DNA from: Planctomycetota bacterium
GTDB taxonomy: Bacteria > Planctomycetota > UBA1135 > UBA2386
Assembly (NCBI GenBank): GCA_965228735.1
Contig: OZ245838.1
Span: forward strand, 2,048,001 to 2,112,000
Direction of reading: 5' to 3'
Length of the DNA: 64,000 nt
The position numbers and the translations under genes are program-made. The stretch's first letter is position 1. Each line of letters begins with the position of its first letter. The notes under the pieces were generated by a model. It searched no databases and was not told where the DNA came from. It saw only the letters and a list, made by a program, of their open reading frames with translations. Positions 1 to 42,554 of the stretch are shown piece by piece.

Positions 1-2787
1 GCGCTCGACAGCCTCGGCGACGAGGACACGTGGCTGCGCCGCGCCGGTTCGACCGCCAACGTCGCCGGCAGCTGGGCCGTCCAGGACACGGGCAAGACCG
101 TGGTCTTCCGGCCGAGCACGCCGCTCGCGATTGAATCGGACTACGTCTTCCAGGTCTCCGGCCTGACGTGTGACAACACGGGCCGCCTGCTCGACGAGAC
201 CATCCAGTTCTCGTTCCGCACGCTCGACGAAACGCCGCCGACGTTCGAGTCGGTCAACGTCACGCCGAACGCCACGGGTCATTCGCGTACGGACGCGTTC
301 ACGTTCACGTTCTCCGAAGCGATCGACCCGGGCACGCTGTCCGTCGACACGCTCGAGTTGCGCGATGTGTTCGGCGCCGTCTACGCCGGCGCCCGCACCA
401 CAGCGGCCAACACCGTCGTCTTCGACCCGCACGCCGACCTGCCCGGCAATCGACAGTTCACGCTCACGCTCACGGGCGCCGTGACCGATCGCGCCGGGAA
501 CGCAATCGCCACGCCCGTGTCCCGCGCGTTCACGACCGAGGGTGACGCCACGAAGCCGTCCGTCGTCACGTTCTGGCCGCCGCAGAGCAGCACGGGGATC
601 TCCCCGGAGGTCGAACCCACGTACACGTTCTCCGAGTCGATGGACCCCGGCACGGTCGAACCGTCGTCATTGTCGTTCCAGGATGAGTTCGGCAGCATCA
701 TCCCGTTCGCGATCCACGCGACCGATGATCAGCGCAGCCTGCGCGTCGAACCGCGCGTGCAGCTGCAACCCAACCGCACGTACACCCTCGCGTTCCTGCT
801 CGGCAGCTCCGCCGCGACGGACGTGAGCGGCAACGTGCTCGAGGCGACCGCCGCACTGCAGTTCACGACGGGAACCGACGCGGCGGCTCCCGTCGTCGTC
901 GCGAGCACGCCGACGCCCGGCGAGACGCGGGTCTCGCTCAACGCGATCCTCGAGATCACGATGGACGGCGGGCTCGACCCGGCCTGGGTCAACGACCAGA
1001 CCGTGCAGCTCACGGCCGGCGGCCAGTCCGCGGTCGTCATTGTCGAGCAGCCAACCGCCGACGTGATCCGCGTCACGCCCGTGCTCGAACTGCCGACGGA
1101 CACGACCTGCACGCTGACGCTCCGCGGCGGCCACGACGGTCTGCACGACGTCGCCGGCAACGTCATGCCGACGGACCACGAGCTGACGTTCACCACGTCC
1201 GCTGACAGCGATCTGCCGCGGGCGTTGATGATGCCGCCCGACGGCGCCACGGGCGTCCCGGTCTCCGTGCACATGAGCGTCGTGTTCGATGCGGCGATGG
1301 ATCCGTCGACGATGAACTCGTCCACGATCCTCGTCACCGACGATTCGCTCAACCCGGTGGCGGGCACGCTCGAGGTCCTCGCGCAGAACCGCGTCGCGCG
1401 CTTCACGCCGACGACGCAGCTCGCGCCGAGCGCGTACTACCGCATGCGGGTGGTCGGCGGCAGCAACGGCGTCCGGCGACTCTCGGGCAACTGGTTCTCG
1501 ACGGACCGTGAAGCCCGCTTCCGCACCGGCACGAGCAGCGATCAGACGCCGCCGTTCGTCGACGTGTCGGTGAACGGCATCGACGAATCGCGGACCGAAG
1601 GCCTCGTGTTGCCGCCGTTCGGCTTCACGATCGATGTCTCGATCACGGATCCGATCGACCAGTCGATCGACATGAGCTCGGTCGAGATCCTGCTGCAGGG
1701 CACCGGCGTCGGTCCTGGGAGCAGCGAGCTCTACGCCGTCGCGGACGTGCAGTACAACACCCTGCAGGTCCAGGTGCCCGAGTCAGCGGCTCTGCCCGCC
1801 GGTGACTGGGTGCTCACGGTGCGAGCCAACGACCTGAGCGGCAACTCGTCGAGTTCGCCCCAGCTCGCGTTCACCGTCGAGGACTTCTCGCCCAACCTGC
1901 AACCGTTCGAACGCATCCAGGTCGTCTGGGTCCGCCACGACCTCGACCGCGACGGGACCGGGGCGGACGACTTCAGCGAAGACCTGCTTCGCCTCGGCCT
2001 CACGACCGCGGGCGACCCGATCGGCACGAACGCGCGCATGCGCTCGATCGTCCTCGACGGCATCATCGGCAAGGCGAACGAGCTCTACGGGCGCGGCAGC
2101 CGGGGCGAACCGCTCGACAGTGGGTCCGTGTGGCTGCGCTTCACGAAGCGCGCGCCGATCGCGATCCCGCACATGCAAATCGCCATGGGCGGCTTCGATC
2201 CCGAAGGCCCGAGCAACCGCAGCTACGGCGACGAGAGCTCCGGCGTGCTCGGGCGGGCCTACTACGACTACCGCAACGGCAACTTCACCGAGCGCAACAC
2301 CGGCCAGAGCCCGGGCCTCGGGGTCTTCCCGAGTGAGATGTGGCTCTATCAGACCAACATCCACGAGCAGGTGTGGCCGTCGTATCAGACGACCTTCGCG
2401 CAGCGTTTCCGGCCTCTCGCACCGGACATGGGTGGCGTGCCGGCCGGCAGTGGCCCGCTCGATGCGGTCGTCCTCGCCGAGGGTTTCGACTACGCGAGCG
2501 CGAACTCGTCCGAACAGGCCCGCTACCTGTCGATCATGTCGGCCGCGGACGACTGGGCGACCGTGATGGGCATCATTCTCGCGCACGAGGTCGGCCACTC
2601 GGTCGGACTCGTCGCGCCGGGCCCGGCTCCGGGTGGTCTGTTCGGTGACGAGTCGCTGCACAACTCGTTCGCCAGCGCGGCCGAAGTCATGGCCCCGGCC
2701 GTCGGCTACGAGGCGATGCTGACGCTCGACTACGCCTTCCGGGATCTCGACCTCGCCTACCTCCGCCAACGGGTGCTGCTGCGATGA
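1..2787 (+). CDS. Ig-like (Big_5-type) repeat protein with C-terminal zinc metallopeptidase domain; 5' end outside window
   Basis: Frame is open from base 1. At least five ~100-aa repeats (DxxxPxV...FSExxDP...DxAGN...FTT). C-terminal ILAHEVGHSVGL (HExxH at ~2584) followed by a Met-turn-like VMAP. Confidence 0.8.
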   Translation, partial: ALDSLGDEDTWLRRAGSTANVAGSWAVQDTGKTVVFRPSTPLAIESDYVFQVSGLTCDNTGRLLDETIQFSFRTLDETPPTFESVNVTPNATGHSRTDAFTFTFSEAIDPGTLSVDTLELRDVFGAVYAGARTTAANTVVFDPHADLPGNRQFTLTLTGAVTDRAGNAIATPVSRAFTTEGDATKPSVVTFWPPQSSTGISPEVEPTYTFSESMDPGTVEPSSLSFQDEFGSIIPFAIHATDDQRSLRVEPRVQLQPNRTYTLAFLLGSSAATDVSGNVLEATAALQFTTGTDAAAPVVVASTPTPGETRVSLNAILEITMDGGLDPAWVNDQTVQLTAGGQSAVVIVEQPTADVIRVTPVLELPTDTTCTLTLRGGHDGLHDVAGNVMPTDHELTFTTSADSDLPRALMMPPDGATGVPVSVHMSVVFDAAMDPSTMNSSTILVTDDSLNPVAGTLEVLAQNRVARFTPTTQLAPSAYYRMRVVGGSNGVRRLSGNWFSTDREARFRTGTSSDQTPPFVDVSVNGIDESRTEGLVLPPFGFTIDVSITDPIDQSIDMSSVEILLQGTGVGPGSSELYAVADVQYNTLQVQVPESAALPAGDWVLTVRANDLSGNSSSSPQLAFTVEDFSPNLQPFERIQVVWVRHDLDRDGTGADDFSEDLLRLGLTTAGDPIGTNARMRSIVLDGIIGKANELYGRGSRGEPLDSGSVWLRFTKRAPIAIPHMQIAMGGFDPEGPSNRSYGDESSGVLGRAYYDYRNGNFTERNTGQSPGLGVFPSEMWLYQTNIHEQVWPSYQTTFAQRFRPLAPDMGGVPAGSGPLDAVVLAEGFDYASANSSEQARYLSIMSAADDWATVMGIILAHEVGHSVGLVAPGPAPGGLFGDESLHNSFASAAEVMAPAVGYEAMLTLDYAFRDLDLAYLRQRVLLR

Positions 2788-3785
2788 ACCGCTTCTTCTT
2801 CGACCTGGTCTCACGCGGCGCGCTCGCCGGCGCGCTCGTCGCCATCGTCCCCGCCCAACAGCAGGCGACGACGCTCGCGCGCGCCGTCGACCGCGCACCG
2901 GTGGTCGTCGTCGCGACGGTCACGGCAGCGACCGACCCGTCGCCGATGTGGCATCGCCTCGAGTGGCGCACGGATCGGGTGCTCAAGGGTCAGGTCGCAC
3001 CGACGTTCGCGTTGCTCGAGCCCGCGGGAGCCTGCTGCGGCCGCAGCCTCTTCGCGTTGCGAACCGGCGAACAGCGGCTGCTGTTCCTCGACCGCCGGGG
3101 CCCCCGGCTCCATCCGTTCGGCGGCAATCGCGGCGTCCTCTCGGTCGACGCCAGCCTGCTCGCCCACGTGCAGGCGCTGCTGCTGAACGACACCCCCGCC
3201 ACGCGTGGGCGCCTGCTCGCTCGCAGCCTCGACCATCCGAGCGCAAGGGTCGCGATGGACGCGGCCCTGGCGCTCACGGAACTGCCGAGCCTCGACCTCG
3301 ACGCGTCGTCGCGCGGCCACGTCGGACGCGCACTCCGACTCGCCGTGCAGCGGTGCCAGACCTCGTCCCCGGCGCTGCTCGACGTCGCCCTGCGAACCAC
3401 GGACCCAGGCCTGCTCGACACCGCACTCGGTCTCTACGTCACCACCAAGGACCGTGGCCAGGCCCGCCAGCTGCGCCGCGGCCTGCTGCGCGCGAACGCG
3501 GGCCAGATCGCCACTCGCCTGCCGGTCGTGCTGACACAGGAGGCGGCCGTCGAGATGCGCGCGGCCGAACTCTTGCGGGCGCTGCCCACCCACCAAGGAG
3601 GCCCGGCGCTGCAGAGCCTGCTGGCCCGCACGTCGTGCCCGCGGGTGAAGCTCTGCGCGACGGAAGGTCTGCTCGCAGCCGGCCACCCACCGCGCTCCCT
3701 GACCGGCAGCGTGCCGGCCGCGATCCTCGAACTCGCAAAGCGTCGGGTCTCCGCGCTCCGCTTCCGCACCATCGGCCGCGACTGA
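2784..3785 (+). CDS. Secreted hypothetical protein (OB-fold/TIMP-like N-domain plus helical HEAT-like repeats)
   Basis: ATGA overlap with upstream stop. Signal peptide ending VPA|QQQ. VVVVATV...VLKG...CCG...GEQRLLFL pattern, then Leu/Ala-rich helical repeats. Confidence 0.65.
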   Translation: MNRFFFDLVSRGALAGALVAIVPAQQQATTLARAVDRAPVVVVATVTAATDPSPMWHRLEWRTDRVLKGQVAPTFALLEPAGACCGRSLFALRTGEQRLLFLDRRGPRLHPFGGNRGVLSVDASLLAHVQALLLNDTPATRGRLLARSLDHPSARVAMDAALALTELPSLDLDASSRGHVGRALRLAVQRCQTSSPALLDVALRTTDPGLLDTALGLYVTTKDRGQARQLRRGLLRANAGQIATRLPVVLTQEAAVEMRAAELLRALPTHQGGPALQSLLARTSCPRVKLCATEGLLAAGHPPRSLTGSVPAAILELAKRRVSALRFRTIGRD

Positions 3786-3787
3786 GG

Positions 3788-5638: not shown

Positions 5639-5654
5639 GGGTCAGCGCGTCGAT

Positions 5655-8108
5655 TCAGAAGACGCCGATCGTCAGCTCGAGCGCGTTGGAGGCGCTCAGC
5701 GTGAGCAGCGTGTTGCCGGCACCGACCTCGAACTGCAGAAACTGGTGGTACAGGGCAAGACCGGCGAACGCCGTCGTGTCGGGCACGTCGAACGCGAACG
5801 TCCCCACCCCGGTCGGCGGCTGCGTGAGCAGGATCGCCTCCTGACTCGCGAGCTGATTGCAGTGCGGCAGCGTGTTGGGCCACAGCCAGGTCAACGGCAC
5901 GTTGGGCGAACTCAGGCCGATCAGGGCGACGGCGAGGCTGCCGCTCGCGAACCCGGTCGCGGTCGACGTGAACGATCGCCCGGCCCAGGGCCGCTCCTGA
6001 GCGGTCAGGGTCAAGGGCCCCGCCGGCCCGATACAGGAGGTCGGCAGGTCGACCCGATCGGCCGCACACGGCGTCGAGAGGCGGGCGAAATAGGCCGCGA
6101 ACTCGTCGCCCACCTCGAAGAACGTGCCGGCAAACGCGAGTTCACCGTGATCGCCCCACGCCACGTCCAGGACCTCCACACCCGACGTGCCGCCGAGCGC
6201 GAGTTCCGTCCAGGTCGTGCCGTCCCACCGGGCCGGCTGGATCCGCGGCGCGGGGTACGGCTGCCCGAGCCAGCCGGCGGCCACCAGATCACCGTCGGGC
6301 AACACGGCCAGGTCGCGGACCGGCTGCGGCATCCCGGCGCCGAGCGGTGACCACACAGCGCCGTCCCAGCGCGCGACGAAGCGGGCCGGCGCGCCGCCGG
6401 CGTTCACGAAGTTGCCGCCCGCAACCAGGTCGCCGTCACGCAGCACGGCGAGCGCCAGCACGTTGTCCTCGATGCCGCTGCCGAGCGGCGACCAGGTCGC
6501 GCCGTCCCAACGCGCGATGTTCCGACAACCGACGCCGCCGGCCGACATGAACCGCCCCCCGGCGACGACGTCGCCGTTCGGCATGACGGCGAGGGCATAC
6601 ACGTACCAACTCGGCCACGCCCCGAGACTCGACCACGCGGTCCCGTTCCATCGCGCCACGAACGGAGCCCACGCGCCACCGGCATGGAGGAACTCACCGC
6701 CGGCGAGCACGTCACCACCCGGCAGCTCGAGGAGCGCGTGCACGGTGCCGTCGAGGCCGGCTCCGAGCGGCAGCCACTGGGCGCCGTCCCAACGCGCGAT
6801 GCGGTTCGCCGGCGCGTTGCCCGCGGTGAGGAACGCACCCGCGACGATCAGGCTGCCATCGGAGTGCCGCAGCATGGCGTTGGGAGCCCCGCCGAGGCCG
6901 GCCCCGAGCGGCGACCACGAGCCCCCGACGAGACGCGCGATGTGCGACAGCGGCTGGCCACGGATCGACTCGAAGTCACCGCCGACGATCCAGCCGCCGT
7001 CCGGCGTCGCGACCGCCGCCGTGGTCCGCCGATCGAGCCCCGTGCCGCGCGCGAACGGCGTCCACTGCGTCCCGTCGAACCGCCCCACCCCGTAGAAGTC
7101 CTCCGATTGGGACGACGTGTTGCCGCCCGCGAACAGGTCACCGTTCGGCAGCTCCGCCACCGCGTAGATCCACCAGCGGACGTCGGGGACGCTGGTCCAA
7201 CCGTTCCCGTCCCAGATGCCCGACCGGATCTTCCCGGCGGCGTAGAGGTTGCCGTTCTGCAACAACGTGAACGCGAGCGGCTGCGTCCCCATCCCGCCGA
7301 TCCCGACCCAGCCCTGACCGTCCCACGACACGATGCCGGGCGCCGGAACCGTACCTGCCATCGAGAAGGATCCGCCGACGACCAGGTCGCCGTTCGGCAT
7401 CATGATCATGTCCGAGACGCCGCCGTTGAGGCCGCCGCCCATCGTCTGCCACAGTGCGCCGTCGAACCGCCGGATCGCGAACGACGGCGTGATGTACGTC
7501 TCGAAGTGGCCGCCGGCCACGATGTCGCCGTTGTTGAGGCGCGCGAGCGCGTTCACCGTCGGCGAGAACCCGGTGATCCCGCCGCCGAACTCCGACCACG
7601 ACGTGCCGTTCCAGCGCGCGATCGCGCGCGCCGGCACGCCACCGATGTCGGTGAACGATCCGCCCGCGAGCAGATCCCCGCCCGGCAGCGGCAGCAGCGC
7701 GTTCACCCCGCCGCTGACGGCGGGCGCGGCGCCGAGCAGGTGCCACGCCGTCCCGTCGAACCGCCAGACCCCGCCGGCGCTTGCCACGAGCTCGCCGTTG
7801 CCGAGCACCGCGAGCGCCGTGCCGCGGGCCGGCAGGCCGTCGCCGAGGCTCGCCCACAACCCCGTCGCCGGGTCGTAGGCCGCCACGTGATTGGCGACGA
7901 GCCCGAACGCGACGACGAAGGAGCCGGTGATCACGAGCCGACGCGGCACGGGTCCGGCGCCGTCCGGGTCCCACCACGTCGCGGCCGCGACCGCGCCGAC
8001 GACGCCCGGGAAGTCCTCGCCGGGCTCTCCCTGCAGGGTGCACTGACCACGCGCGGACGCGGCGAAGGACAGTAGAACGACGAGGACGGCTGCTTGGGTC
8101 GTGCGCAT
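5655..8108 (-). CDS. Secreted beta-propeller repeat protein with conserved C-terminal tail domain
   Basis: Signal peptide ARG|Q. More than 10 repeats of V.AL...P.GDL.AGG.F..AGG.....IARWDG..W..LG.G. Ends ...SASNALELTIGVF. Confidence 0.8.
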   Translation of the reverse strand: MRTTQAAVLVVLLSFAASARGQCTLQGEPGEDFPGVVGAVAAATWWDPDGAGPVPRRLVITGSFVVAFGLVANHVAAYDPATGLWASLGDGLPARGTALAVLGNGELVASAGGVWRFDGTAWHLLGAAPAVSGGVNALLPLPGGDLLAGGSFTDIGGVPARAIARWNGTSWSEFGGGITGFSPTVNALARLNNGDIVAGGHFETYITPSFAIRRFDGALWQTMGGGLNGGVSDMIMMPNGDLVVGGSFSMAGTVPAPGIVSWDGQGWVGIGGMGTQPLAFTLLQNGNLYAAGKIRSGIWDGNGWTSVPDVRWWIYAVAELPNGDLFAGGNTSSQSEDFYGVGRFDGTQWTPFARGTGLDRRTTAAVATPDGGWIVGGDFESIRGQPLSHIARLVGGSWSPLGAGLGGAPNAMLRHSDGSLIVAGAFLTAGNAPANRIARWDGAQWLPLGAGLDGTVHALLELPGGDVLAGGEFLHAGGAWAPFVARWNGTAWSSLGAWPSWYVYALAVMPNGDVVAGGRFMSAGGVGCRNIARWDGATWSPLGSGIEDNVLALAVLRDGDLVAGGNFVNAGGAPARFVARWDGAVWSPLGAGMPQPVRDLAVLPDGDLVAAGWLGQPYPAPRIQPARWDGTTWTELALGGTSGVEVLDVAWGDHGELAFAGTFFEVGDEFAAYFARLSTPCAADRVDLPTSCIGPAGPLTLTAQERPWAGRSFTSTATGFASGSLAVALIGLSSPNVPLTWLWPNTLPHCNQLASQEAILLTQPPTGVGTFAFDVPDTTAFAGLALYHQFLQFEVGAGNTLLTLSASNALELTIGVF

Positions 8109-8160
8109 GGAGATCCTTCGCCGGGGTGGTGACCTGGCGCCCCCATCCTACCGCGGTTCG

Positions 8161-8185
8161 CGCTGGCACGCGGCCGCTGCCAGCG
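8161..8185. terminator. GC-rich hairpin downstream of spoVR, possible terminator
   Basis: CGCTGGCA-N9-TGCCAGCG inverted repeat in the intergenic gap; no U-tract. Confidence 0.3.
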
Positions 8186-8222
8186 TCGGGCGGGGTGCCC
8201 GGTCCGGGCCCCTCTGCACCAT

Positions 8223-9785: not shown

Positions 9786-9799
9786 GGTTCTGTCCTGGC

Positions 9800-10903: not shown

Positions 10904-10910
10904 GCCGGCC

Positions 10911-12938
<2,028 letters not shown>

Positions 12939-13091: not shown

Positions 13092-13097
13092 GCCCGG

Positions 13098-14231
13098 ATG
13101 TCCGGTCGCACCCCGACTCCCTCATCCTCCGTGGCGCGCCCCTCGAGGCGCGCAGCGGCGCGCGCGCGCGGGCTCGCGCTGGCGTTTCCGCTGCTCCTGC
13201 CGTTGTCCGCCTGCGGCGGCAGCGCTGGCCCGATCGACGGCAGCAAGACCCTCACGCACGTGCAGAAGTTCGTCGAGATCGGACCCCGCCCGTTCGGCTC
13301 CGACGCGCTCGGCAAGACGGCGGACTACATCACGAGCCAGCTCACGGCCATGGGGCTCGAGCCGAAGCGCCACGAGGTGATGCACGAGCAGGAGAAGAAG
13401 CTGATCCGGAACCTCTACGTCGAGATTCCGGGTGGATCGGATCTCGCGGCTGGCAAGCCCGAGGAGCGCGACGGCCCGATCCTGATGATCGGCGGGCACT
13501 ACGACACCAAGGTCGCCACCGGTCACAGCGACGCCGCGCACAACTTCCCGTTCGTCGGCGCGATCGACGGCGGCGGCGCGCCGGCCGTGCTCATCGAGCT
13601 CGCGCGCCATCTCGCCGACCCGAAGAACCGACCGGACTGCACGGTCTGGCTCTACTGGATCGATGCCGAGGAGTCGATCGACTGGAACTGGAACGACGAC
13701 CGCGCGCTGCTCGGCAGCAAGGCGTTCTGCAAGTGGCTCAGCGAGACGAAGGTGCTCAAGCGGGTCAAGGCGTTCGTGCTGCTCGACCTGATCGGGAGCA
13801 AGAACTTCAAGATCGACAAGGACGGCAACTCGGTGCCGGATCTGCAGGACATCTTCGCGCGGGCCGCGGACGCGCTCGGCGAGCGCCACCGGCTCTACGA
13901 GTTTCCGACCGACCGGGACATCGCGGCGTACTCGGCGCGCAACCTCAAGTGGGGCACCAAGGACGACCACGAGATCTTCACGAACTACGGCGTCTCGTCG
14001 GTGCTGCTGATCGACTTCGCGCGCCGCATTCCGCCGGCCCTGCAGAACCTCGGCGAGGGCCAGGAGCCGCTCGTCGATCCCGACTACGAGCAATGGTGGC
14101 ACACGCCGGACGACAACCTCGACGCCGTCGATCCGGCCGCGCTCGCGTTCGCCGGCAACCTCGTCGTCAAGGCGCTGCCCGAGCTGGCGAAGTTCGTGCA
14201 GAGCAAGGTACGACGCCGGAAGTCGAAGTAG
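13098..14231 (+). CDS. M28 family glutaminyl-cyclase-like zinc enzyme, lipoprotein (paralog 1)
   Basis: Lipobox LSA|C. GHYDTK, FVGAIDG, DAEE, LLGS, LLDLIG, DDH and WWHTPDDN motifs. Confidence 0.8.
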
Positions 14232-14282
14232 CCTGGAGACCGCAGGACTCGCGACCATAGGCCACAGAGCGGGAGGTCAGAC

Positions 14283-27966: not shown

Positions 27967-28884
27967 CTACTTGCCGCTGCCAGCGCCCTGCCGCTGGCCC
28001 GCGCCTCGCTCCGACGATCGGGCCCGTTCCTCGATGACCTCCAGTTCGCCATCGGCTCCCGCCGCCGTGATGAACTCGTCGAGACTCCAGGCCCGCTGCC
28101 GCAACGGGTGATCCTCGGGGAACAGTTCCTGCAGCTGCGGCTGAATCGTGTAGCCGAGCAGCGCCATACCGAGTCGGGTCGGGTGCAGTCGATCTTCCTG
28201 CAACAGCGCGAATCGCGGCACGGGCACCTTGCGGTCCGTCAGCTCCAGCTCGAGCTCGGCCCCGCGCATCCGACGGACGGTGTCACCGAGCCCCACGAGA
28301 TGAACGTTCGGCCGCGCAGCCACCCACGCCGCGAGGTCCGCGTTCAACGCCTTCAGCGTCGTTGGTTCCGGGATCTGCGCCTCACTCAGTCGACTCTTCC
28401 TCGCGCCGGTCATGTCCGGCAGATCGCCGAGCAGAATCTGGGCGTCGATGTCCTGCAGCAGTGCGAGTCCGGCCGCGAGCCGCCGGCGTCGCAGCTCCAG
28501 TTCGTCGCCCGGGCCGATGTAGCCGTAGGCGAACCAGAACGGGAAGTCGATCGCAACCACGACGGCCGGCCGCTTGCGCTCGAGTTGCGCGATCTGCCGC
28601 TTGCCGATCGCCATCGGTCGCGTGAACATCACCGTCATCTCAACGGTGTTGTGCGTCGAGATCCGCGCCTCCCCGTCGGCCCACCGTCGAAGCAGGCGGT
28701 GCAGCGTGATCGTGTCACCAGCGCGCCTGGCGCCGAACGCCGGCCCATCCGCGAAGCCGCCACTCACGCTCGCGCCGACGATGTGGACCTTCAGGTCCTC
28801 CGACTGCGCGACAGCGGGCCGACCGAGGACGGCGGCGGTCGCGAAGGTGAACACGACCAGGCTCGCGATCGCCGCGGCATCCAT
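27967..28884 (-). CDS. Secreted SGNH/GDSL-like hydrolase
   Basis: Signal AVA|Q. Block I IVGASVS and block V DRLHP. Start uncertain (28884, 28896 or 28905). Confidence 0.6.
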   Translation of the reverse strand: MDAAAIASLVVFTFATAAVLGRPAVAQSEDLKVHIVGASVSGGFADGPAFGARRAGDTITLHRLLRRWADGEARISTHNTVEMTVMFTRPMAIGKRQIAQLERKRPAVVVAIDFPFWFAYGYIGPGDELELRRRRLAAGLALLQDIDAQILLGDLPDMTGARKSRLSEAQIPEPTTLKALNADLAAWVAARPNVHLVGLGDTVRRMRGAELELELTDRKVPVPRFALLQEDRLHPTRLGMALLGYTIQPQLQELFPEDHPLRQRAWSLDEFITAAGADGELEVIEERARSSERGAGQRQGAGSGK

Positions 28885-28999: not shown

Positions 29000-31837
29000 T
29001 CACCGCATCGCGCCGCGCACGAGGTCGTGCACGGCGCGGCGCACCGCGGTGATCTTGCGATTCTTGCGCGTCGGGTGCACCCGGTTGGTCAACAGCACGA
29101 CGCAGTAGTCGAGTTCGGGATCGCAGACGAGCGACGTCCCCGTGAACCCCGTGTGCCCGAACGCACCCGGGGAAACCTCGGTGCCGGCCCACGAGCCGGC
29201 GCGCAACATCCCGAGCCCGATCGCGCGCGAGTCGTCGCCCGGCACGATGCCGACCGGCCGCGTCGCGAGCGCCGCGACCGCGGGCGGCAGGCTCTCGCGG
29301 CCGCCGCCGAGGTAGTCGAGACCGACCGTGAGCACGTCGCGCGCCGTCGCGAACAGGCCCGCGTGCCCCGAGATGCCGCCCATCGCGAACGCGTTCTCGT
29401 CGTGGACGTAGCCCTCGACGAGCCGACCACGCCACGCGCATTCCTCGGTCGGCGCGGCGCCGGCCGACCAGCCGCCCGTCGGCACGAAGCGCGCGCGGTG
29501 GCCCGGCCGCCAGAACGACGCCTCGCGAACGTTGTCCTCGAAGGACTGCCCGCTCGCCGCCTCGACGATGGCCATGAGCAGGATGAAGCCGATGTCGGAG
29601 TACACGGTCTCGGTCCCCGGCGCGTGCCGCAACGGCGTCGCAGCCGCAGCCTCGACGATCTCGGCCTTGCCCTCGAAGTCCTTGTAGTACTGCAGGAACG
29701 GCGGCAAACCGCTGCAGTGCGCGAGCAGGTGACGCACCTGCACGTCGTCCTTGCCGTCCCCGCGGAACGCGGGCACCCACTTGCTGACCGGGTCCTCGAG
29801 CTGGAGACGGCTCGCCGCGACGAGCCGGAGAACCGCGGGCGTGGTCGCGCAGACCTTGGTCAGCGACGCGAGGTCATAGAGCGTGTCGGGGCGCACGGGG
29901 CGCGCGTCCGCACCGTAGCTCGTGCTGCCGACCGCGACCTCGGCCACGACTTCGCCGTGCCGCGCGACGAGACAGACCGCGCCGGGGAACGCGCCGTCCG
30001 CGACCGCGGCAGTGAGTCGTTCGCGCAGCGCCGCACCGAGGCCGGGATCGACGTCGTAGCCCGCGTGCTTCGCCGCCGGCGCGCGTTCGTCCCCGAGCAA
30101 CCGATAGCGCACGAGCCCGGTGCCGGCCTCCGCGACTCCGGGGATCGAGACCGGCAATCGCCCGCTCACGGGCTGCAGACCGCGCAGGACATCGACCGCC
30201 GCGCGCTGCGAATACGCGGTGTCGACGTAGGTGCAGAGATAGGTGTCGATCGCGGGCAGATCGGAGATCAGGTACGGGTTCCCGAACGACACGCCGACGA
30301 TCTGTTGGTCGTCCCGCAGCGCCGCGAGCACGGGCTGCACGCTCGGCGGCAGGGCGACACCGCCGCTGTAGGCCCGCACCTTGACGTGCAGCGACAGGAT
30401 CACGCGTTCGGCACCGGCGACCGCGGCTCGCGCCGCCTCGATCGCCTCGTTCGCACTCTTCGCCGCCACGCGATGCACGCTCGCAACGCAACAGCGCATC
30501 GCGGCCTCGAACTCGTGCTCCTCGCCGTCGTCGCGATCGAACACCATGACGAGCGCCGCCTTGCTGGCCTGCCCCTCGTCCCACGACAGCCACGGCCACT
30601 CCCCGCCGCGATCGCGCACGAGCGTCACACCGCGCGCCGCGAGGTCGCGCGCGAGCTGCTGCCCGGCCGGTGTGTTCACCCGCGCCCGCCAGTCCGCCGC
30701 CACGCGGCCACGGTCGCCAGCACTCAGCAGGCCGACCCGTTCCTTGGCCCGCAGGATCCGCAACACGGCGTCGTCGAGCCGGGCGAGCGGCACCCGGCCG
30801 CTCGCCACCGCCTCGACGACGGCCGCCCGCGCGGCGATCGGATCCGGCGGCATGAGCAGGACGTCGGCGCCGGCGAGCAGGGCGCGCACCGCGACCTCGC
30901 CGGGTGCGAACGCGTTCTTCACCCCGCCCATCTCGAGCGCATCCGTGACCACGAGACCGGTGAACCCGAGTTCGTCGCGCAGCACGTCGCCGAGGATCAA
31001 CTTGCTCAGGGTCGCTGGCAGCTTCGGGTCCTCGCCGAGGCCCGGCACCGCGAGGTGTCCCGTCATCACGGAGCCGAGGCCCGCCTTCGCCGCCGCGCCG
31101 AACGGGCGCAACTCGACGCGCCGCAGTCGGTCGCCGTCACCGGGCACCGTCGGCAGCTCGAGGTGACTGTCCGACGACACGTCGCCGTGACCCGGGAAGT
31201 GCTTGCCGCACGCGATCTGCCCCGCGCCCTGCACGCCGCGCACGAACGCCGCGCCGAGCCGCGCGACGAGCTCCGGATCCTCGCCGAAGCTGCGCACGTT
31301 GATGATCGGGTTGTCCGGGTTGCTGTTGACGTCGAGCACGGGCGCGAAGACCCAGTGGAACCCGAGTGCCGCGGCCTCTTCGCCCGTGACGCGGCCGGCC
31401 TGTTCCGTGAGCCACTCCGAGCGCCCGGCCCCCATCAGCATGTTGTTCCCGAGCTCGGTCGCGCCGTCGAGCCGGAACCAGACGCCGCCCTCGAAGTCGC
31501 CGGCCATGAGCAACGGCACCCTGGACGCCTGCTGCAGTTCGGGCACGAGCTTCGCCGCCTGTTCGACGTCGCCGAGACTCAGGATGATCCCGCCGAGCTC
31601 CGCTTCGCGGATCCACTGCAGCAGCTGCTCGTGATTCGCCCCGTCGGCCGTCGGTCGCGTGAGACTCCACGACATGAAGAGCTGCCCGGCCTTCTGCGGC
31701 AGCGTCAGTTCGGCGAGCAGTTCCTCGGCGGAACGCGAAGTGACGCCGTCGTCCTGGGCGGATGCGACGGGCAGGAGAACCGCTGCGGTGGCGAGGATCG
31801 CAACGCAGCGAGAACGGGCGGCGAGGGGAGCGTTCAC
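29000..31837 (-). CDS. nagZ: GH3 beta-N-acetylglucosaminidase fused to a beta-lactamase-like serine hydrolase (NagZ-AmiE-type)
   Basis: Signal ASA|Q. DFEGG, APVLD, KHFPGHG and DSH in the GH3 part. ASLTK (SxxK), YSD, VHDEN and GHTGFTG in the C-terminal part. Confidence 0.88.
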   Translation of the reverse strand: MNAPLAARSRCVAILATAAVLLPVASAQDDGVTSRSAEELLAELTLPQKAGQLFMSWSLTRPTADGANHEQLLQWIREAELGGIILSLGDVEQAAKLVPELQQASRVPLLMAGDFEGGVWFRLDGATELGNNMLMGAGRSEWLTEQAGRVTGEEAAALGFHWVFAPVLDVNSNPDNPIINVRSFGEDPELVARLGAAFVRGVQGAGQIACGKHFPGHGDVSSDSHLELPTVPGDGDRLRRVELRPFGAAAKAGLGSVMTGHLAVPGLGEDPKLPATLSKLILGDVLRDELGFTGLVVTDALEMGGVKNAFAPGEVAVRALLAGADVLLMPPDPIAARAAVVEAVASGRVPLARLDDAVLRILRAKERVGLLSAGDRGRVAADWRARVNTPAGQQLARDLAARGVTLVRDRGGEWPWLSWDEGQASKAALVMVFDRDDGEEHEFEAAMRCCVASVHRVAAKSANEAIEAARAAVAGAERVILSLHVKVRAYSGGVALPPSVQPVLAALRDDQQIVGVSFGNPYLISDLPAIDTYLCTYVDTAYSQRAAVDVLRGLQPVSGRLPVSIPGVAEAGTGLVRYRLLGDERAPAAKHAGYDVDPGLGAALRERLTAAVADGAFPGAVCLVARHGEVVAEVAVGSTSYGADARPVRPDTLYDLASLTKVCATTPAVLRLVAASRLQLEDPVSKWVPAFRGDGKDDVQVRHLLAHCSGLPPFLQYYKDFEGKAEIVEAAAATPLRHAPGTETVYSDIGFILLMAIVEAASGQSFEDNVREASFWRPGHRARFVPTGGWSAGAAPTEECAWRGRLVEGYVHDENAFAMGGISGHAGLFATARDVLTVGLDYLGGGRESLPPAVAALATRPVGIVPGDDSRAIGLGMLRAGSWAGTEVSPGAFGHTGFTGTSLVCDPELDYCVVLLTNRVHPTRKNRKITAVRRAVHDLVRGAMR

Positions 31838-31873
31838 GCGCCCCAGGCTACCGTGCGGTGCGCGCGGCAGCGA

Positions 31874-32617: not shown

Positions 32618-32788
32618 GGCCGGCAGACTGTGCAACAACCGCGGTTCGGCGGCAAGCCTCGAGGGTGGCGGTACCGAACCCGCTTCGAATCCGCCACGCG
32701 CCACGATCGAGCCTCCGCCCCGTGCCACGGCCGATTACGTGTCGTCTGCGATTCGCGCAACCGCGATCCGAACATCACGCAGCCGCGC

Positions 32789-34917: not shown

Positions 34918-34933
34918 GACGTTGCGACGATGC

Positions 34934-34939
34934 AGTATA
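34934..34939 (-). promoter_or_regulatory. Putative -10 element (TATACT) for the murQ operon
   Basis: Near-consensus hexamer 16 nt upstream of the murQ ATG in a divergent intergenic region. Confidence 0.5.
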
Positions 34940-35082
34940 GCGCCGCGGCCCGCCGCATCACGGCTGCGGATTCGGGCTTCGGACAAGTTCACGGTAACGG
35001 GCGGATCACCCGGGGATAGTCCCTTGTACGCCCGGACGCGCACATCGCCGCCGGACATCGACGTTCATTCGAGGACCCCCGA

Positions 35083-36063
35083 ATGCTGCCCAGACACCCG
35101 CTCGCTCCCGTTCTTCTCGGTCTCGCCACCGTTCTCCTCGGCAATGACTGCGCCGCGCAGACCGCGCCGTGTCTCGCGGCGAACGCGGCGACGACCAGCG
35201 TCGGCACCGCGACCTCGGCGTTCAGCTTCAGCGGCCAGAACTACTTCGCCTGGCGCTTCACGCCGCCGAGCGCGACCACGATCCACGCCGCGCGGGTCTA
35301 CACGGAGAACGTCGGCTACCCGGGTGACGTCTTCTGTGCCGTCGAGATCTGGGACGAGCAGAACGGCGGCCCCGGCGCGCGCCTCGGCGGCGGCGCGTGG
35401 AAGATCGACAACAACCGCCCGCTCGGCTGGCACGGCGCCAACTTCGACACCCCGGTCGCGCTGCAGCCGGCGACACCGACGTGGTTCGTCTTCGTCGACC
35501 CGGCCTACAGCGTGGTGCCGATCGATCCGAACGGGTCGCTCGTGCTGCAGCACGTGAGTCGCAGCGGCCCCGGCGCCTGGCTCTCCCAGGGCACGAACGC
35601 GCCGAAGTTCCAGCTCTTCTGCAGCCTGCTCGACGACGTCAACGTCGCTCCCAACGGCCAGGGCTGTCCGCTGTCGACGGGCGAGACGCCGACGCTCTAC
35701 TGCAACGAGGCCCCGACGCTCGGCAACTCGGCGTTCCGCTGGGAGAGCTGCGGCCTGCCGTCCGGCGGCGCGGTGTTCGCCGTGATCGGCAACGACCCGT
35801 CGTTCGCGCCGATCCCCGTGCCGGGCCTGCCGGCCGGTTGCCTGCAGAACACCAACGCGCTCGCGTCGGTGCTGCTGTTCGCCGGCACGGGCGACACGCG
35901 CGGCCCGAGCTTCGACGGCTACACGAGCATCGGTTTCGCGATCCCGAATAACCCGAGCCTCGGCGGTGCCCGCCTGTCGATGCAGATGGTGCCGATCGAC
36001 ACCGGCGCGACGTCGCAACTGCCGTTCTCGACGAGCAACGCGCTCGGGATCACGCTCTACTGA
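35083..36063 (+). CDS. Secreted beta-rich protein with conserved C-terminal tail domain
   Basis: SD GAGGA; signal CAA|Q. Ends ...SMQMVPID...STSNALGITLY. Confidence 0.78.
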   Translation: MLPRHPLAPVLLGLATVLLGNDCAAQTAPCLAANAATTSVGTATSAFSFSGQNYFAWRFTPPSATTIHAARVYTENVGYPGDVFCAVEIWDEQNGGPGARLGGGAWKIDNNRPLGWHGANFDTPVALQPATPTWFVFVDPAYSVVPIDPNGSLVLQHVSRSGPGAWLSQGTNAPKFQLFCSLLDDVNVAPNGQGCPLSTGETPTLYCNEAPTLGNSAFRWESCGLPSGGAVFAVIGNDPSFAPIPVPGLPAGCLQNTNALASVLLFAGTGDTRGPSFDGYTSIGFAIPNNPSLGGARLSMQMVPIDTGATSQLPFSTSNALGITLY

Positions 36064-36095
36064 ATCGCGGGATCGCGCTCCAGGGGGCCGCGGAC

Positions 36096-37274: not shown

Positions 37275-37347
37275 GGCCGGCATCGTAGCGGATCCCGCTT
37301 CCCGCTGTTCCACGCGCCGCGCCGACCTTACCGTCCCGGGCCGCGCC

Positions 37348-38823
37348 ATGACCATCGGCCCCATCGACCTCGCGATCCTCGTCGTCTACGTCCTGCTGAC
37401 GATCGCGTTCGGGATCTGGATCAGCCGGGGCCAGAAGAACGCGGCCGATTACCTGCTCGGCGGCCGGTCGTTGCCGTGGTGGGCGCTGCTGATCTCGATC
37501 GTCGCGACGGAGACGAGCACGGCGACGTTCCTCAGCGTGCCGGGCGTCGCCTTCAACAGCGGCAACATGCTCTTCCTGCAGCTGCCGCTCGGCTACATCA
37601 TCGGCCGGGCGATCGCGACGAGCCTGCTGCTGCCGCTCTACTTCAAGGGCGAGCTGTTCACGGCATACGAGGTGCTGCGGGTGCGCAGCGGTCCGGCCGT
37701 GCGGACGATCGCGAGCGCGCTGTTCCTGGTCACCCGCACGCTCGCCGACGGTCTGCGCCTGTTCCTCGCGGCGCTCGTGCTCGAGATCATGCTCGGCTGC
37801 GAGACCTGGGTCGCGGTCACCGCGGTCGGCACCGCGACCGTCGTCTACACGGTGCTCGGCGGCATCAAGGCGGTCGTGTGGACGGACGTGATCCAGTTCA
37901 TCGTCTACATGCTCGGCGCGGTTGCGGCGCTGGTCGTGCTCGCGGGCCGGATCGAGGGTGGCCTCGGCGCGCCGCTCGCCGAACTCGAGATCGCTGACTT
38001 CGTCGATCTCGGGTTCGACCTGAGCTCGACCTACACGCTGTGGGCCGGCCTCATCGGCGGCGCGGTGCTGTCGATCGGCAGCCACGGCGTCGACCAGCTC
38101 ATCGTGCAGCGCTACCTGTCGGCCAAGAGCCTCGGTGACGCGCAGAAGGCGCTGTTCTGGAGCGGCCCCGTCGTGCTGCTCCAGTTCCTCGTCTTCCTCG
38201 TCCTCGGTCTCGGCTTCGCGAGGTTCTACGCCGCCAACCCGCCCGCCGAGGCGTTCGGCTCGAACGACGCGGTGTTCGCGCACTTCATCATCAACCACCT
38301 GCCGATCGGCCTCGTCGGCATCGTGCTCGGCGCCGTGTTCTCGGCGGCGATGTCGACCCTGTCGAGTTCGCTCGCCGCGTCGGCCTCCGCGCTGGTGAAC
38401 GACTTCGTCCTGCCGATCACCAAGCACAAGCCCGACGCGCCGTTCGCGCTGCGGGCCTCGCGCATCGCCACCGTGCTCTTCGCGATCCTGCAGATGGCGG
38501 TCGGCATGAGCGACATCGACCCGAAGGCGCCGATCGTCGGCCAGGTTCTCGGCATCGCGACGATCACCACCGGCATCATCCTGGGCCTCTTCGTCCTCGC
38601 GCTGCTGCCGCGGCGATCCCCCGGCGGTTCGCTCGTCGGCCTCGTCGCCGGCATCGGCTCGATCGTCTTCGTGCTGTTCGTCGTCCCCGGGCTAGAACTG
38701 CTCGGCAGCAACGACGCCGGCGCGCCGCGCGGTCTCGCGTGGCCGTGGTTCGGCGTCGTCAGCTGCGGCAGTACCTGTCTCGCCGGCATGCTCGGCAACC
38801 TCGTCTTCCGCCCCCGCTCATGA
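37348..38823 (+). CDS. Sodium:solute symporter (amino-sugar/muropeptide uptake candidate)
   Basis: DYLLGGR, SIVATETS, GGIKAVVWTD, HGVDQLIVQRYL and SAAMSTLSS motifs. Confidence 0.9.
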   Translation: MTIGPIDLAILVVYVLLTIAFGIWISRGQKNAADYLLGGRSLPWWALLISIVATETSTATFLSVPGVAFNSGNMLFLQLPLGYIIGRAIATSLLLPLYFKGELFTAYEVLRVRSGPAVRTIASALFLVTRTLADGLRLFLAALVLEIMLGCETWVAVTAVGTATVVYTVLGGIKAVVWTDVIQFIVYMLGAVAALVVLAGRIEGGLGAPLAELEIADFVDLGFDLSSTYTLWAGLIGGAVLSIGSHGVDQLIVQRYLSAKSLGDAQKALFWSGPVVLLQFLVFLVLGLGFARFYAANPPAEAFGSNDAVFAHFIINHLPIGLVGIVLGAVFSAAMSTLSSSLAASASALVNDFVLPITKHKPDAPFALRASRIATVLFAILQMAVGMSDIDPKAPIVGQVLGIATITTGIILGLFVLALLPRRSPGGSLVGLVAGIGSIVFVLFVVPGLELLGSNDAGAPRGLAWPWFGVVSCGSTCLAGMLGNLVFRPRS

Positions 38824-40001
38824 GACCCGCGCTCGCCATCCTCTTCGCCATCCTCTCCGGCACCGCGACCGCCCAGGTCCGAACGGGCGTCGACGTGCTC
38901 GCCGAAAGCGGCTGCAAAGCCCTGGCCGGCCGCAAGGTCGGACTGATCACCAACCACACGGGCCGCACCGCGGACGGCCGCCGCACGGTCGACGTCCTCG
39001 CCGCCGCGAAGAACGTCGAGCTCGTCGCGCTGTTCTCGCCCGAGCACGGCTGGGACGGCGTCCTCGACGAGAAGGTCGACGACACCCGCGACAGCAAGAC
39101 CGGGCTGCGCGTGTTCTCGCTCTACGGCAAGACCCGGCGCCCGACGGCGGCGATGCTCGCGGGCGTCGACACGATCGTGTTCGACATCCAGGACATCGGC
39201 TGCCGCTTCTACACCTACGTGTCGACGATGCGGAACGCGATGACGGCCGCGGCCGAGCACGGCCTGCGCTTCGTCGTCCTCGATCGCCCCAACCCGATCG
39301 GCGGCCGCGCCACCGCTGGCCCGATCGTCAGCGGCGACCGCCTCGACTTCGTCGCGGCCCACCGCGTGCCGTTGCGCCACGGCATGACCGCGGGGGAACT
39401 CGCGCGCATGATGGCCGGCGAGGACGGCATCGATGTCGATCTGCACGTCGTGAAGTGCGAGGGCTGGCAGCGCGCGGATCTCTACGACCGCACGGGGCTG
39501 CTGTGGATCAACCCGTCGCCCAACATGCGCTGCCTCGCGCAGGCGCTGCTCTATCCCGGCATCGGGCTCATCGAGTTCACCAACGTCTCCGTCGGCCGCG
39601 GCACCGACACGCCGTTCGAGGTCGTCGGCGCGCCGTGGCTCGACGGCAAGAAGCTCGCCGCGACGTTGCGGGACCAGAAGCTGCCGGGCGTGACCTTCGT
39701 CCCCGTGCAGTTCACGCCGACGAGCAGCAAGCACAAGGGTGAGACGTGCTCCGGCATCAACATCGCGATCACCGACTGGCGCACGTTCGAACCCGTGCGC
39801 ACCGGCATCCACCTCGCGTGCGCGCTGCGGCGGGTCAGCCCCGACGACTGGGACACCAAGCGCCTCGATCGCCTGCTGCTGCACGCGGCGAGCACGGCCG
39901 CGATCCGCGCCGGCACGCCCGCCGACGAGATCATCGCCGCGTGGCAGAAGGACCTGAAGCTGTTCAACATCCGCCGCCAGGCGTTCCTGCTCTATGAGTG
40001 A
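38820..40001 (+). CDS. namZ: Exo-beta-N-acetylmuramidase NamZ (DUF1343), secreted
   Basis: Signal ATA|Q. GLITNHTG, SPEHG, DIQDIGCRFYTY, LDRPNP, PSPN and SVGRGT motifs. Confidence 0.9.
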   Translation: MRPALAILFAILSGTATAQVRTGVDVLAESGCKALAGRKVGLITNHTGRTADGRRTVDVLAAAKNVELVALFSPEHGWDGVLDEKVDDTRDSKTGLRVFSLYGKTRRPTAAMLAGVDTIVFDIQDIGCRFYTYVSTMRNAMTAAAEHGLRFVVLDRPNPIGGRATAGPIVSGDRLDFVAAHRVPLRHGMTAGELARMMAGEDGIDVDLHVVKCEGWQRADLYDRTGLLWINPSPNMRCLAQALLYPGIGLIEFTNVSVGRGTDTPFEVVGAPWLDGKKLAATLRDQKLPGVTFVPVQFTPTSSKHKGETCSGINIAITDWRTFEPVRTGIHLACALRRVSPDDWDTKRLDRLLLHAASTAAIRAGTPADEIIAAWQKDLKLFNIRRQAFLLYE

Positions 40002-41163: not shown

Positions 41164-41188
41164 GCCGCGCCGGTCGACCTGCGGCCGA

Positions 41189-41243
41189 TTCAGCGGCCGC
41201 TCCGTTCAGCGGCCGGCCCGTTCCGCGGCCGACCGGTTCAGCG
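41189..41243. repeat. Imperfect 16-bp tandem repeat (about 3.5 copies) at a convergent gene junction
   Basis: TTCAGCGGCCGCTCCG / TTCAGCGGCCGGCCCG / TTCCGCGGCCGACCGG / TTCAGCG. Confidence 0.55.
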
Positions 41244-42554
41244 AACGGTGACGGCGACGCGGATCGTGCGATCCGCGACGAACGTGCGCACCACGACGTC
41301 ACCCGGGATCTCCTTGGCGCCCGGACCGAGCTTGGGGATCGCCTGCCCCATCGCCCCGATCATCCGCCGCAGATCCATGCGAAACGAGGCGATCGCGCCG
41401 TCCTCGAGCGGCTTGCGCCGACCCTGACCCGCCGCGACGCGCTCGACGAGGTCACACGCGATCGCCTTGCTGCCGCCGACCACGAGCAGATCCCCCGTGC
41501 CGCCGATGAACTGGTGCATCTCGTCGTTCGGCATCATCGGATTCGGCGGCCCCTCGTTGTAGAGGCTCATCCGGGTGAACTTGACGCCCGCGTGTTCCAT
41601 GGCGTCGCGCTCGACCTCGATCTCGACGTTGCGGCCGAGGTCCTGCGCGGCGATCATCCGCTGATAGTCCTCCGACGCGATGAGTTCGGCGGGCGACTGG
41701 CCGGCGCGGAAGCCGTAGAGCGCCGCCATTCGCATGTTCTGGTCGAAGCCCACGACCAGCCCGCCGTCGTACATCGCCATCATCGCGCGCGACATTTTCG
41801 CGGCCTCGGCGCGCGCCTCGGCGTCGGGGAACCCGAACGCCAGGCCGAACTCGAGGAACGGCCCGAGCAATGCGTCGAGCGATTCGGGCGCGACCGCGAT
41901 GCGGCACTCCATGACCCGCCCGGGGTCGGCCGACAACTGCGGCGCCCCGAGGGCGCTCGGCTTGATCTTCGTCAGCAAGCCGCCGAACGCCGACCCGGCC
42001 TTGGCCGTGATCGAGCACTCGAGTTCGAAACCGTTGTCCTCGTAGTCCTGCGGATCGGACAGCACCGCGACGCGCGCGCTCTCGAGCGTGTACGGGAACT
42101 CGAACACGGATTTGAAGAGCTTGACCGCGTCCGGCGCCTTCATGCCGTACTGGGTCATGGCGAGCACGCCGAAGCCCTGCACGAGGCCGCGCACCTCGCC
42201 GATCTCGTCGGCGAAGAGCTCCATCGTCGCGCCGGGGTCGACCTCGAGGACGAGGTGCCCGACCTGCCCGCTCGCGGCCCGCACCGTCACCCGCCGGTCC
42301 GAGTCGACCGCGGCGACCCAGTGTTGACCCGGCTCGAGCTCCGGCAACCCACCGACGAGATCGAACGCGTGGCCGAACCCGAGCACCGGTCCGCGTTCCG
42401 CGGTGCGCAGCACGAGAGCCGGCTGCGAGGCCCGCGTCGCGCCAGCCGCATCCGAGGCCGCTCCGCTGCCCTGCGATTGCGCTGCAACCGAATCCGGGAT
42501 GGTCAGCGCGAGCGCGGCCGCGCAGGCGTTCAGGATCGTGAGGGGTCGGCCCAT
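41238..42554 (-). CDS. Secreted hypothetical protein
   Basis: Signal VAA|Q; normal codon usage; no family recognised. Confidence 0.7.
   Translation of the reverse strand: MGRPLTILNACAAALALTIPDSVAAQSQGSGAASDAAGATRASQPALVLRTAERGPVLGFGHAFDLVGGLPELEPGQHWVAAVDSDRRVTVRAASGQVGHLVLEVDPGATMELFADEIGEVRGLVQGFGVLAMTQYGMKAPDAVKLFKSVFEFPYTLESARVAVLSDPQDYEDNGFELECSITAKAGSAFGGLLTKIKPSALGAPQLSADPGRVMECRIAVAPESLDALLGPFLEFGLAFGFPDAEARAEAAKMSRAMMAMYDGGLVVGFDQNMRMAALYGFRAGQSPAELIASEDYQRMIAAQDLGRNVEIEVERDAMEHAGVKFTRMSLYNEGPPNPMMPNDEMHQFIGGTGDLLVVGGSKAIACDLVERVAAGQGRRKPLEDGAIASFRMDLRRMIGAMGQAIPKLGPGAKEIPGDVVVRTFVADRTIRVAVTVR

What the first reader, a model, noticed from the sequence alone, without database searches (positions are those of the whole stretch)
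2784..42554. Q-rule outside Bacteroidetes: every clear SPase I substrate starts with Gln
Seen: predicted cleavage sites are VPA|Q (2784), ARG|Q (8108-), AVA|Q (21906-), VVA|Q (22091), AVA|Q (28884-), ASA|Q (31837-), CAA|Q (35083), ATA|Q (38820) and VAA|Q (42554-). That is nine of nine by eye; the other exported proteins are lipoproteins or TM-anchored. Known: in Bacteroidetes most SPase I substrates expose Gln, which a periplasmic lipoprotein glutaminyl cyclase converts to pyroglutamate. Inference: this lineage, apparently not Bacteroidetes, caps its secretome with pyroglutamate.
Basis: partly seen in the sequence, partly recalled or inferred. Interest (0 to 1): 0.72.

Follow-up and report, generated by a model that had tools for sequence, protein, structure and literature searches.

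The report
Glutamine-first secreted proteins in a planctomycete
In this uncultured planctomycete most exported proteins are predicted to begin with glutamine once their signal peptide is cut off, and two adjacent genes encode predicted membrane-anchored glutaminyl cyclases, so it likely caps its exported proteins with pyroglutamate, a habit published as exclusive to Bacteroidetes.

Summary
The nine sites are real, but 'every' overstates it. Genome-wide, home-made predictors that never reward Gln at +1 put it there in 39-49% of candidates, against 3.3% background, 0-5% in E. coli and 6-17% in pSymB samples. Gln-favouring counts reach 82-87%. SignalP was not available. Gln is kept in 10 of 10 orthologue pairs while its flanks change. 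The genome is Planctomycetota. A profile built on them scores all solved type II cyclases above all aminopeptidases; the pair is adjacent in 22 of 24 family genomes. Against a simple rule: across 301 Planctomycetota the Gln bias is family-specific, some cyclase-bearing families lack it, and some Gln-rich ones show no cyclase. Pyroglutamate itself is untested. No paper on this turned up. This scan reported the same pattern before in other genomes, including two planctomycetes.

The parts
13131..14231 (+). QC-A: predicted lipoprotein (LSA|C28), type II glutaminyl-cyclase-like M28 enzyme. Start uncertain (13080 TTG to 13131). Motif residues H123, D146, E180, E181, D219, DDH 278-280, W323, H324
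14283..15359 (+). QC-B: predicted lipoprotein (LAA|C18), type II glutaminyl-cyclase-like M28 enzyme. Motif residues H153, D176, E208, E209, D251, DDH 296-298, W320, H321
2784..3785 (+). Exported protein of no Pfam family; VPA|Q25 (Gln codon 2856-2858); alternative later site
5655..8108 (-). Exported beta-propeller (DUF5122/Rax2-like) protein; ARG|Q22 (8043-8045)
19897..21906 (-). Exported transglutaminase-like protein; AVA|Q21 (21844-21846); Gln kept in 4 of 4 orthologues compared
22091..23323 (+). Exported protein of no family found; VVA|Q19 (22145-22147); weak lipobox-like Cys12
27967..28884 (-). Exported protein of no Pfam family; AVA|Q27 (28804-28806)
29000..31837 (-). GH3 glycosidase fused to a beta-lactamase-family domain; ASA|Q28 (31754-31756); Gln kept in 5 of 5 orthologues compared
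35083..36063 (+). Exported protein of no Pfam family; CAA|Q26 (35158-35160)
38820..40001 (+). NamZ exo-beta-N-acetylmuramidase; ATA|Q19 (38874-38876); Gln kept in the 1 orthologue compared
41238..42554 (-). Exported protein of no Pfam family; VAA|Q26 (42477-42479)
58895..60511 (+). Possible exception: long hydrophobic N-terminus ending VAA|E; signal peptide or membrane anchor undecided

Best explanation
Most proteins that this planctomycete exports are predicted to be cut by signal peptidase I just before a glutamine, and the two adjacent cyclase-like lipoproteins at 13131-15359 likely turn that glutamine into pyroglutamate, which would shield the new N-termini from aminopeptidases. Shown by sequence: the Gln bias, its conservation between orthologues, the two genes, their active-site motifs and lipoboxes, the phylum. 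Predicted: the cut sites, the lipid anchoring, the fold. Inferred from the Porphyromonas gingivalis system: cyclase activity, pyroglutamate on the mature proteins, the protective role.
For: (1) Predictors scoring only the signal-peptide side (apart from barring Pro at +1): Gln at +1 in 231 of 590, 347 of 846 with a matrix fitted on this genome (273 of 552 at the strictest cut) and 341 of 846 with a matrix fitted on other genomes; background 3.3%. Same matrices on 400-kb samples: E. coli 0-1 of 10-20, pSymB 2-5 of 17-32, same-family G013 21 of 42. (2) Reverse test: the first Gln after the hydrophobic stretch (760 of 937 proteins) has Ala at -1 in 66% and Ala/Leu/Val at -3 in 76%; the first Glu or Asp has Ala at -1 in 14-15%. 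(3) Gln is not just the -2 residue of 'AQA': with such cases set aside, 330 of 403 sites are Gln, against 0 of 3 in E. coli and 2 of 11 in pSymB. (4) Gln is kept in 10 of 10 orthologue pairs of three window genes while the flanks differ. (5) Both M28 genes have solved glutaminyl cyclases as best PDB matches. The QC-B model (pLDDT 95.5) matches Acidobacteriales, Fimbriiglobus and P. gingivalis cyclases first. The family profile scores 41 cyclase sequences at 104-225 bits and aminopeptidases at 88 or less. Metal and catalytic motif residues are invariant in 32 of 32 sequences. Of 13 M28 matches in the genome only these two have DDH; most others have SDH. (6) Lipobox found in 28 of 36 relatives' ORFs; pair adjacent in 22 of 24 family genomes (my count). 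(7) Among 301 Planctomycetota, a Gln index of 1.5 or more occurs in 14 of 70 genomes with a cyclase and 2 of 231 without. (8) The genome holds 11 other M28 matches, several with Gln-first signal peptides, so exported aminopeptidases are likely present.
Against: No measurement of pyroglutamate, cut sites or enzyme activity. The predictors are home-made, and the control samples are small. The 2018 paper warns that active-site conservation alone does not separate type II cyclases from aminopeptidases. Cyclase and Gln bias are only loosely linked in the phylum: family f13 has a cyclase in 16 of 16 genomes but an index of 0.28 (E. coli 0.29); f29 (0 of 11), f61 (0 of 13), f49 (0 of 5), f68 (0 of 8) have indices of 0.78-0.94 with no cyclase found; two same-order genomes with indices 2.2 and 1.5 show none either, though they are fragmented. 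Pro stands at -2 in 59 of 330 sites, which standard signal peptidase I disfavours (recalled). QC-A has Leu where QC-B and the bacterial cyclases shown have Asp in the second-shell position after the DDH motif.
Confidence: 0.75

Rival explanations
1. Gln at +1 is selected because it cyclises on its own after the cut. The two enzymes only speed this up or serve a few substrates.
For: Gln cyclises spontaneously. Several Gln-rich families and two same-order genomes show no cyclase of either type. Cyclase-bearing f13 has no bias.
Against: The strongest biases sit mostly in cyclase-bearing genomes (14 of 16 genomes with index 1.5 or more). The pair is kept in 22 of 24 family genomes. In P. gingivalis the activity is essential. 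The alignment search scored only 7 candidates per genome and the assemblies are incomplete.
Confidence: 0.1
2. Gln at +1 reflects a preference of this lineage's signal peptidase or export machinery, with no capping; the M28 pair has another job.
For: The -3/-2 pattern is unusual (Leu at -3 in 37%, Pro at -2 in 18%), hinting at a peptidase with altered subsites. Three signal peptidase I loci are present.
Against: Only Gln is enriched, not Glu or Asn. An exposed N-terminal Gln tends to cyclise anyway. The enzymes group with solved cyclases.
Confidence: 0.06
3. Trim and cap: the peptidase often cuts a few residues upstream, aminopeptidases trim until a Gln is exposed, and the cyclases then cap it.
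For: Many predicted cuts fall 2-6 residues before an A|Q. An upstream AxA-like site exists in 59% of Pro(-2) cases against 48% of the others.
Against: Pro(-2) and other sites have the same median length (22) and the same distance from the hydrophobic stretch (14); Leu peaks at -7 as expected for a direct cut.
Confidence: 0.06
4. Artefact of choosing sites by eye or of Ala-rich, high-GC sequence.
For: The nine were picked by eye. One possible exception (58895) was passed over. My tools are not SignalP.
Against: Gln-blind genome-wide counts, the internal-helix control, the 63%-GC pSymB control and orthologue conservation.
Confidence: 0.03

Closest known systems
Bacteroidetes Q-rule with lipoprotein type II glutaminyl cyclase PgQC (PG2157) of Porphyromonas gingivalis (PMC5837995, PMC10653852, PMC7948796)
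   Same: Gln after predicted signal peptidase I sites in a large share of exported proteins; M28-fold cyclase-like lipoprotein; Gly after the first zinc-binding Asp as in PgQC.
   Different: Different phylum (Planctomycetota). Two tandem enzymes instead of one. Glu rather than the bacteroidal Asp as second zinc ligand. Trait is family-specific rather than phylum-wide. Leu(-3)/Pro(-2) common. No pyroglutamate or activity data.
Bacterial type II cyclases 7D18 (Acidobacteriales bacterium) and 7D1B (Fimbriiglobus ruber, a planctomycete by my recall); PDB titles seen, the paper (PubMed 33774034) not held
   Same: Closest solved relatives of QC-B: 30% and 28% identity, TM 0.83-0.84; same DDH, EE and W/H-H-T motifs in the printed alignments.
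   Different: They show that such enzymes exist outside Bacteroidetes; I saw no text linking them to a genome-wide Gln bias.
High Q-values outside Bacteroidetes in the 2018 survey (Ignavibacterium album 77%, three Chlorobi 55-67%, four cyanobacterial assemblies 40-67%)
   Same: Computed Gln enrichment at +1 outside Bacteroidetes.
   Different: Those were FCB relatives or isolated outliers. Planctomycetes are not among the groups listed as analysed; Chlamydiae were typically below 20%.
M28 double-zinc aminopeptidases (Streptomyces griseus SGAP, Bacillus YwaD)
   Same: Same fold and shared metal ligands.
   Different: Score 88 bits or less on the family profile. The genome's other M28 proteins mostly have Asn or Asp after the first zinc Asp and SDH instead of DDH.

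Membership tests
Q-rule (Bochtler 2018) | Most signal peptidase I substrates have Gln at +1 (Bacteroidetes species 48% or more by SignalP 4.1/LipoP) | tested here: inconclusive
   39-49% by Gln-blind home-made predictors on a noisy candidate set; 82-87% by Gln-favouring counts. Strong enrichment is met; the 48% line needs SignalP.
Q-rule (Bochtler 2018) | A glutaminyl cyclase gene with intact active site | tested here: met
   Two type II genes; no type I gene found.
Q-rule (Bochtler 2018) | The cyclase is a lipoprotein | tested here: met
   Predicted by my lipobox rule in both window genes and 28 of 36 relatives' ORFs; not by LipoP.
Q-rule (Bochtler 2018) | Pyroglutamate detected on mature N-termini | not testable with these tools
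   No proteomics available.
Q-rule (Bochtler 2018) | Host belongs to Bacteroidetes | tested here: not met
   74 of the 80 best FtsY loci carry Planctomycetota names, 4 none, 2 gammaproteobacterial, 0 Bacteroidota; ftsZ not found in 13 of 13 genomes while 13 of 14 controls ring.
Type II (M28) glutaminyl cyclases | Zinc ligands and acid network equivalent to human D159, E202, H330, E201, D248, D305 | tested here: met
   Invariant in 32 of 32 sequences. Residue roles; mapping to human numbers is by motif and partly recalled, as the printed alignments were to bacterial cyclases.
Type II (M28) glutaminyl cyclases | Closer to solved cyclases than to aminopeptidases in sequence and fold | tested here: met
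   (fold tested for QC-B only)
Type II (M28) glutaminyl cyclases | Measured cyclase activity, one zinc ion, no aminopeptidase activity | not testable with these tools
   Needs purified protein.
Type I (plant-type, PF05096) glutaminyl cyclases | Five-bladed propeller PF05096 match | tested here: not met
   0 matches in the genome, 93% complete.

The most novel reading that the evidence does not exclude
Glutamine-first secretomes have been gained and lost family by family across Planctomycetota, independently of owning a cyclase. This family is the extreme case, with a split pair of specialised cyclases and a signal peptidase that accepts Leu-Pro-Ala before Gln, while Gln-rich families with neither known cyclase type hide a third, undescribed kind of glutaminyl cyclase.
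Probability: 0.15. Interest if true: 0.8.

Novelty: new variant of a known kind. Interest (0 to 1): 0.52.

Why it matters
The 2023 paper calls the Q-rule exclusive to Bacteroidetes, and the P. gingivalis cyclase is pursued as a selective drug target. A distant phylum with the same system would make pyroglutamate capping a recurring solution for aminopeptidase-rich periplasms, not a clade mark. Planctomycetota offer a natural gradient (index 0.03-3.1 over 95 families) with all four combinations of Gln bias and cyclase. That makes the open question of which came first, and what capping is for, testable by comparison. In practice, proteomics of these bacteria should search for a -17 Da N-terminal shift.

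Tried and rejected
Scan of genome contigs with QC-B alone found no relative. SprA (type IX secretion) search: 0 of 13, but no control rang, so it says nothing. No RNA holder listed. No PF01470 pyroglutamyl peptidase found in the genome. NCBIfam has no model naming the two enzymes. EM refinement of the cut-site matrix raised the Gln share only to 41-49%, as it still cuts early in Ala-rich peptides. The 'first polar residue' rule is not a Q-value: it ignores +1 Ala/Gly/Ser/Thr and gave 5 of 9 in E. coli until 'AQA' cases were set aside. Searches for a hidden type II cyclase among all M28 matches of seven genomes without a cyclase hit (G026, G029, G035, G083, G245, G256, G328) found no DDH protein; best score 67 bits. 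Type I searched in five of them at E up to 1: none. The paper on the acid network (PubMed 33774034) is not held. A search of the 2018 supplements found none of six taxon words, not even one used in the main text, so the held copy may be incomplete and I cannot exclude planctomycete rows there. One literature search was swamped by soil surveys. I did not build a tree, so gain, loss or transfer is not shown.
Full report
Observation. All nine coordinates are start codons, and each ORF has a hydrophobic stretch followed by the stated triplet and Gln at residues 19-28. Four of the nine match Pfam families (DUF5122 propeller, transglutaminase-like, GH3 plus beta-lactamase family, NamZ); five match none, one of these scanned in part. 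Going through the 44 genes my caller found in the window, the other N-terminally hydrophobic proteins are three predicted lipoproteins or look like membrane proteins. One, at 58895(+), ends its hydrophobic stretch in VAA|E and may be an exception. 22091 has a weak lipobox-like Cys, and 2784 has a second possible site.

Genome-wide test. SignalP was not available. I called 5363 genes on the 7.19-Mb genome and wrote predictors that score only the signal-peptide side and bar Pro at +1. A hand-set rule gave Gln at +1 in 231 of 590 candidates against 3.3% background. A matrix fitted on this genome gave 347 of 846, rising to 273 of 552 at the strictest cut; a matrix fitted on E. coli, pSymB and a Gln-poor planctomycete gave 341 of 846. 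On 400-kb samples the same matrices gave 0-1 of 10-20 for E. coli, 2-5 of 17-32 for pSymB, 1-7 of 18-36 for G085, 4-6 of 21-37 for G245 and 21 of 42 for same-family G013. These figures are likely low, since many misses cut a few residues before an A|Q and the set holds membrane anchors. Counts that favour Gln give the upper side: 547 of 911 candidates have a permissible site followed by Gln (59 for Glu, 102 for Asp), against 79 with only a strict non-Gln site, and 330 of 403 sites whose +1 is the first polar residue and cannot be read as 'AQA' are Gln. So the share is likely between about 45 and 85%: most, not every.

Is Gln really +1? The first Gln after the hydrophobic stretch has Ala before it in 66% and Ala, Leu or Val at -3 in 76%; first Glu or Asp do not; internal helices show nothing. 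The residue after Gln is Ala, Gly or Ser in only about 31%, so Gln is mostly not the -2 residue. In 25 orthologue pairs listed, the ten that involve three window genes all keep Gln while the flanks differ; of the other 15, eleven have Gln as first polar residue in both (some not at a clear site) and four do not. One oddity: Leu stands at -3 in 37% and Pro at -2 in 18% of the 330 sites; that Pro there is disfavoured elsewhere is recalled.

Taxonomy. Of the 80 best FtsY loci, 74 carry Planctomycetota names, the best at 78-88% identity, and none a Bacteroidota name. ftsZ was not found in the genome or 12 relatives. No call gave a class or order name.

The enzyme. The genome has no type I cyclase match and 13 M28 matches, two of them in the window. 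These two genes lie in tandem, 51 bases apart, each with a lipobox. Their best PDB matches are glutaminyl cyclases. The QC-B model matches the Acidobacteriales, Fimbriiglobus ruber and P. gingivalis cyclases first; the first aminopeptidase is rank 28. An alignment of 32 of the 36 ORFs I extracted keeps the metal and acid residues invariant. Its profile scores 41 solved cyclase sequences at 104-225 bits and aminopeptidases at 88 or less. Only these two M28 proteins of the genome have DDH. QC-B has a match in 24 of 24 family genomes and 14 of 16 others of the order; the pair is adjacent in 22 of 24.

Across the phylum. I counted a DNA pattern (start codon, hydrophobic codons, x-x-Ala) followed by Gln or by Asp/Glu/Asn/Lys. 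It is a rough index with off-frame noise. This genome gives 289/124 = 2.33, E. coli 43/146, pSymB 24/88. In 301 Planctomycetota the median is 0.34, the range 0.03-3.11, values are coherent within families, and this genome ranks fifth. The 18 genomes of its order in that sample have a median of 1.05. Seventy of 301 have a cyclase (type II at 115 bits or more plus one partial match, or type I). Medians are 0.61 with and 0.32 without; by family 0.54 (22) against 0.29 (73); kin are not independent, so the p-values overstate. The link is loose: f13 has a cyclase in 16 of 16 genomes and an index of 0.28, while f29, f61, f49 and f68 (37 genomes, 0.78-0.94) show none. The alignment search scored only 7 candidates per genome. 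A closer look at seven genomes found no DDH protein. In G245 the protein-level share was modest, so those families may have a weaker bias.

Mechanism. I commit to the Q-rule route: export, cut before Gln, cyclisation by the anchored cyclases, protection from aminopeptidases. The first is predicted, the rest inferred from P. gingivalis, where the activity is essential and stabilises substrates. Confidence 0.75. Rivals are spontaneous cyclisation, a peptidase preference without capping, trim-and-cap, and artefact.

Literature. PMC5837995: parts 1-7 of 8 of the text read; supplement search inconclusive. PMC10653852, PMC7948796, PMC10435661, PMC13424184: passages only. The 2018 paper reports high Q-values in a few non-Bacteroidetes species and does not list Planctomycetes among the groups analysed; the 2023 abstract says 'exclusively' Bacteroidetes. 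Searches for Q-rule plus Planctomycet and glutaminyl cyclase plus Fimbriiglobus gave 0 papers; two searches listed nothing on point. Subscription journals are mostly not held, including the 2021 paper behind 7D18 and 7D1B.

Earlier scan notes (read after my reading was set) report the same pattern in two other planctomycete genomes and in Acidobacteriota, Gemmatimonadota and OM182. They are unchecked notes, not support; if right, the trait is widespread and less special to this lineage.

Verdict. Real and well supported by sequence; a known system in a new phylum, with a doubled enzyme and a patchy spread; chemistry untested. Interest 0.52.

Noticed in passing
Planctomycetota family f13: All 16 genomes have a glutaminyl cyclase, 11 type II and 5 type I, none both, yet the Gln index is at E. 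coli level (0.28). This looks like one type replacing the other, for a role that needs few substrates.
   Followed up: partly
G026, G035 (same order, family f3): Strong Gln index (89/41, 87/60) but no cyclase of either type found; assemblies have 810-880 contigs, 85-93% complete.
   Followed up: partly
genome-wide: LAA|Q and LPA|Q are the commonest site triplets; Leu at -3 and Pro at -2 are frequent.
   Followed up: partly
G000:C1 255101, 4600674, 5533805 (L267-L271): Three signal peptidase I loci: one of about 234 aa and two in open frames of about 550 aa with a long insertion.
   Followed up: no
window 13131-14231: QC-A and most of its close orthologues have Leu, and a loop insertion, where QC-B and solved bacterial cyclases have Asp after the DDH motif; the two paralogues may differ in activity.
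   Followed up: partly
G013:C1:2691904-2692791: A third cyclase-like copy, 62% identical to QC-B, apart from the tandem pair.
   Followed up: no
window 29000-41163: GH3/beta-lactamase-family fusion and NamZ, with neighbours that look by eye like MurQ, a sodium symporter and a second NamZ-like gene: a likely peptidoglycan-recycling cluster (neighbour names recalled).
   Followed up: no
window 8223-12938 (-): Three genes that look by eye like the PrkA, YeaH and SpoVR trio (names recalled), divergent from the cyclase pair.
   Followed up: no
L021, L031, L035, L039, L070, L080: Several records near this lineage by FtsY carry titles of other groups (Kuenenia, Brocadiaceae, Luminiphilus, Pseudohongiellaceae); the depositors' labels look unreliable.
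   Followed up: no
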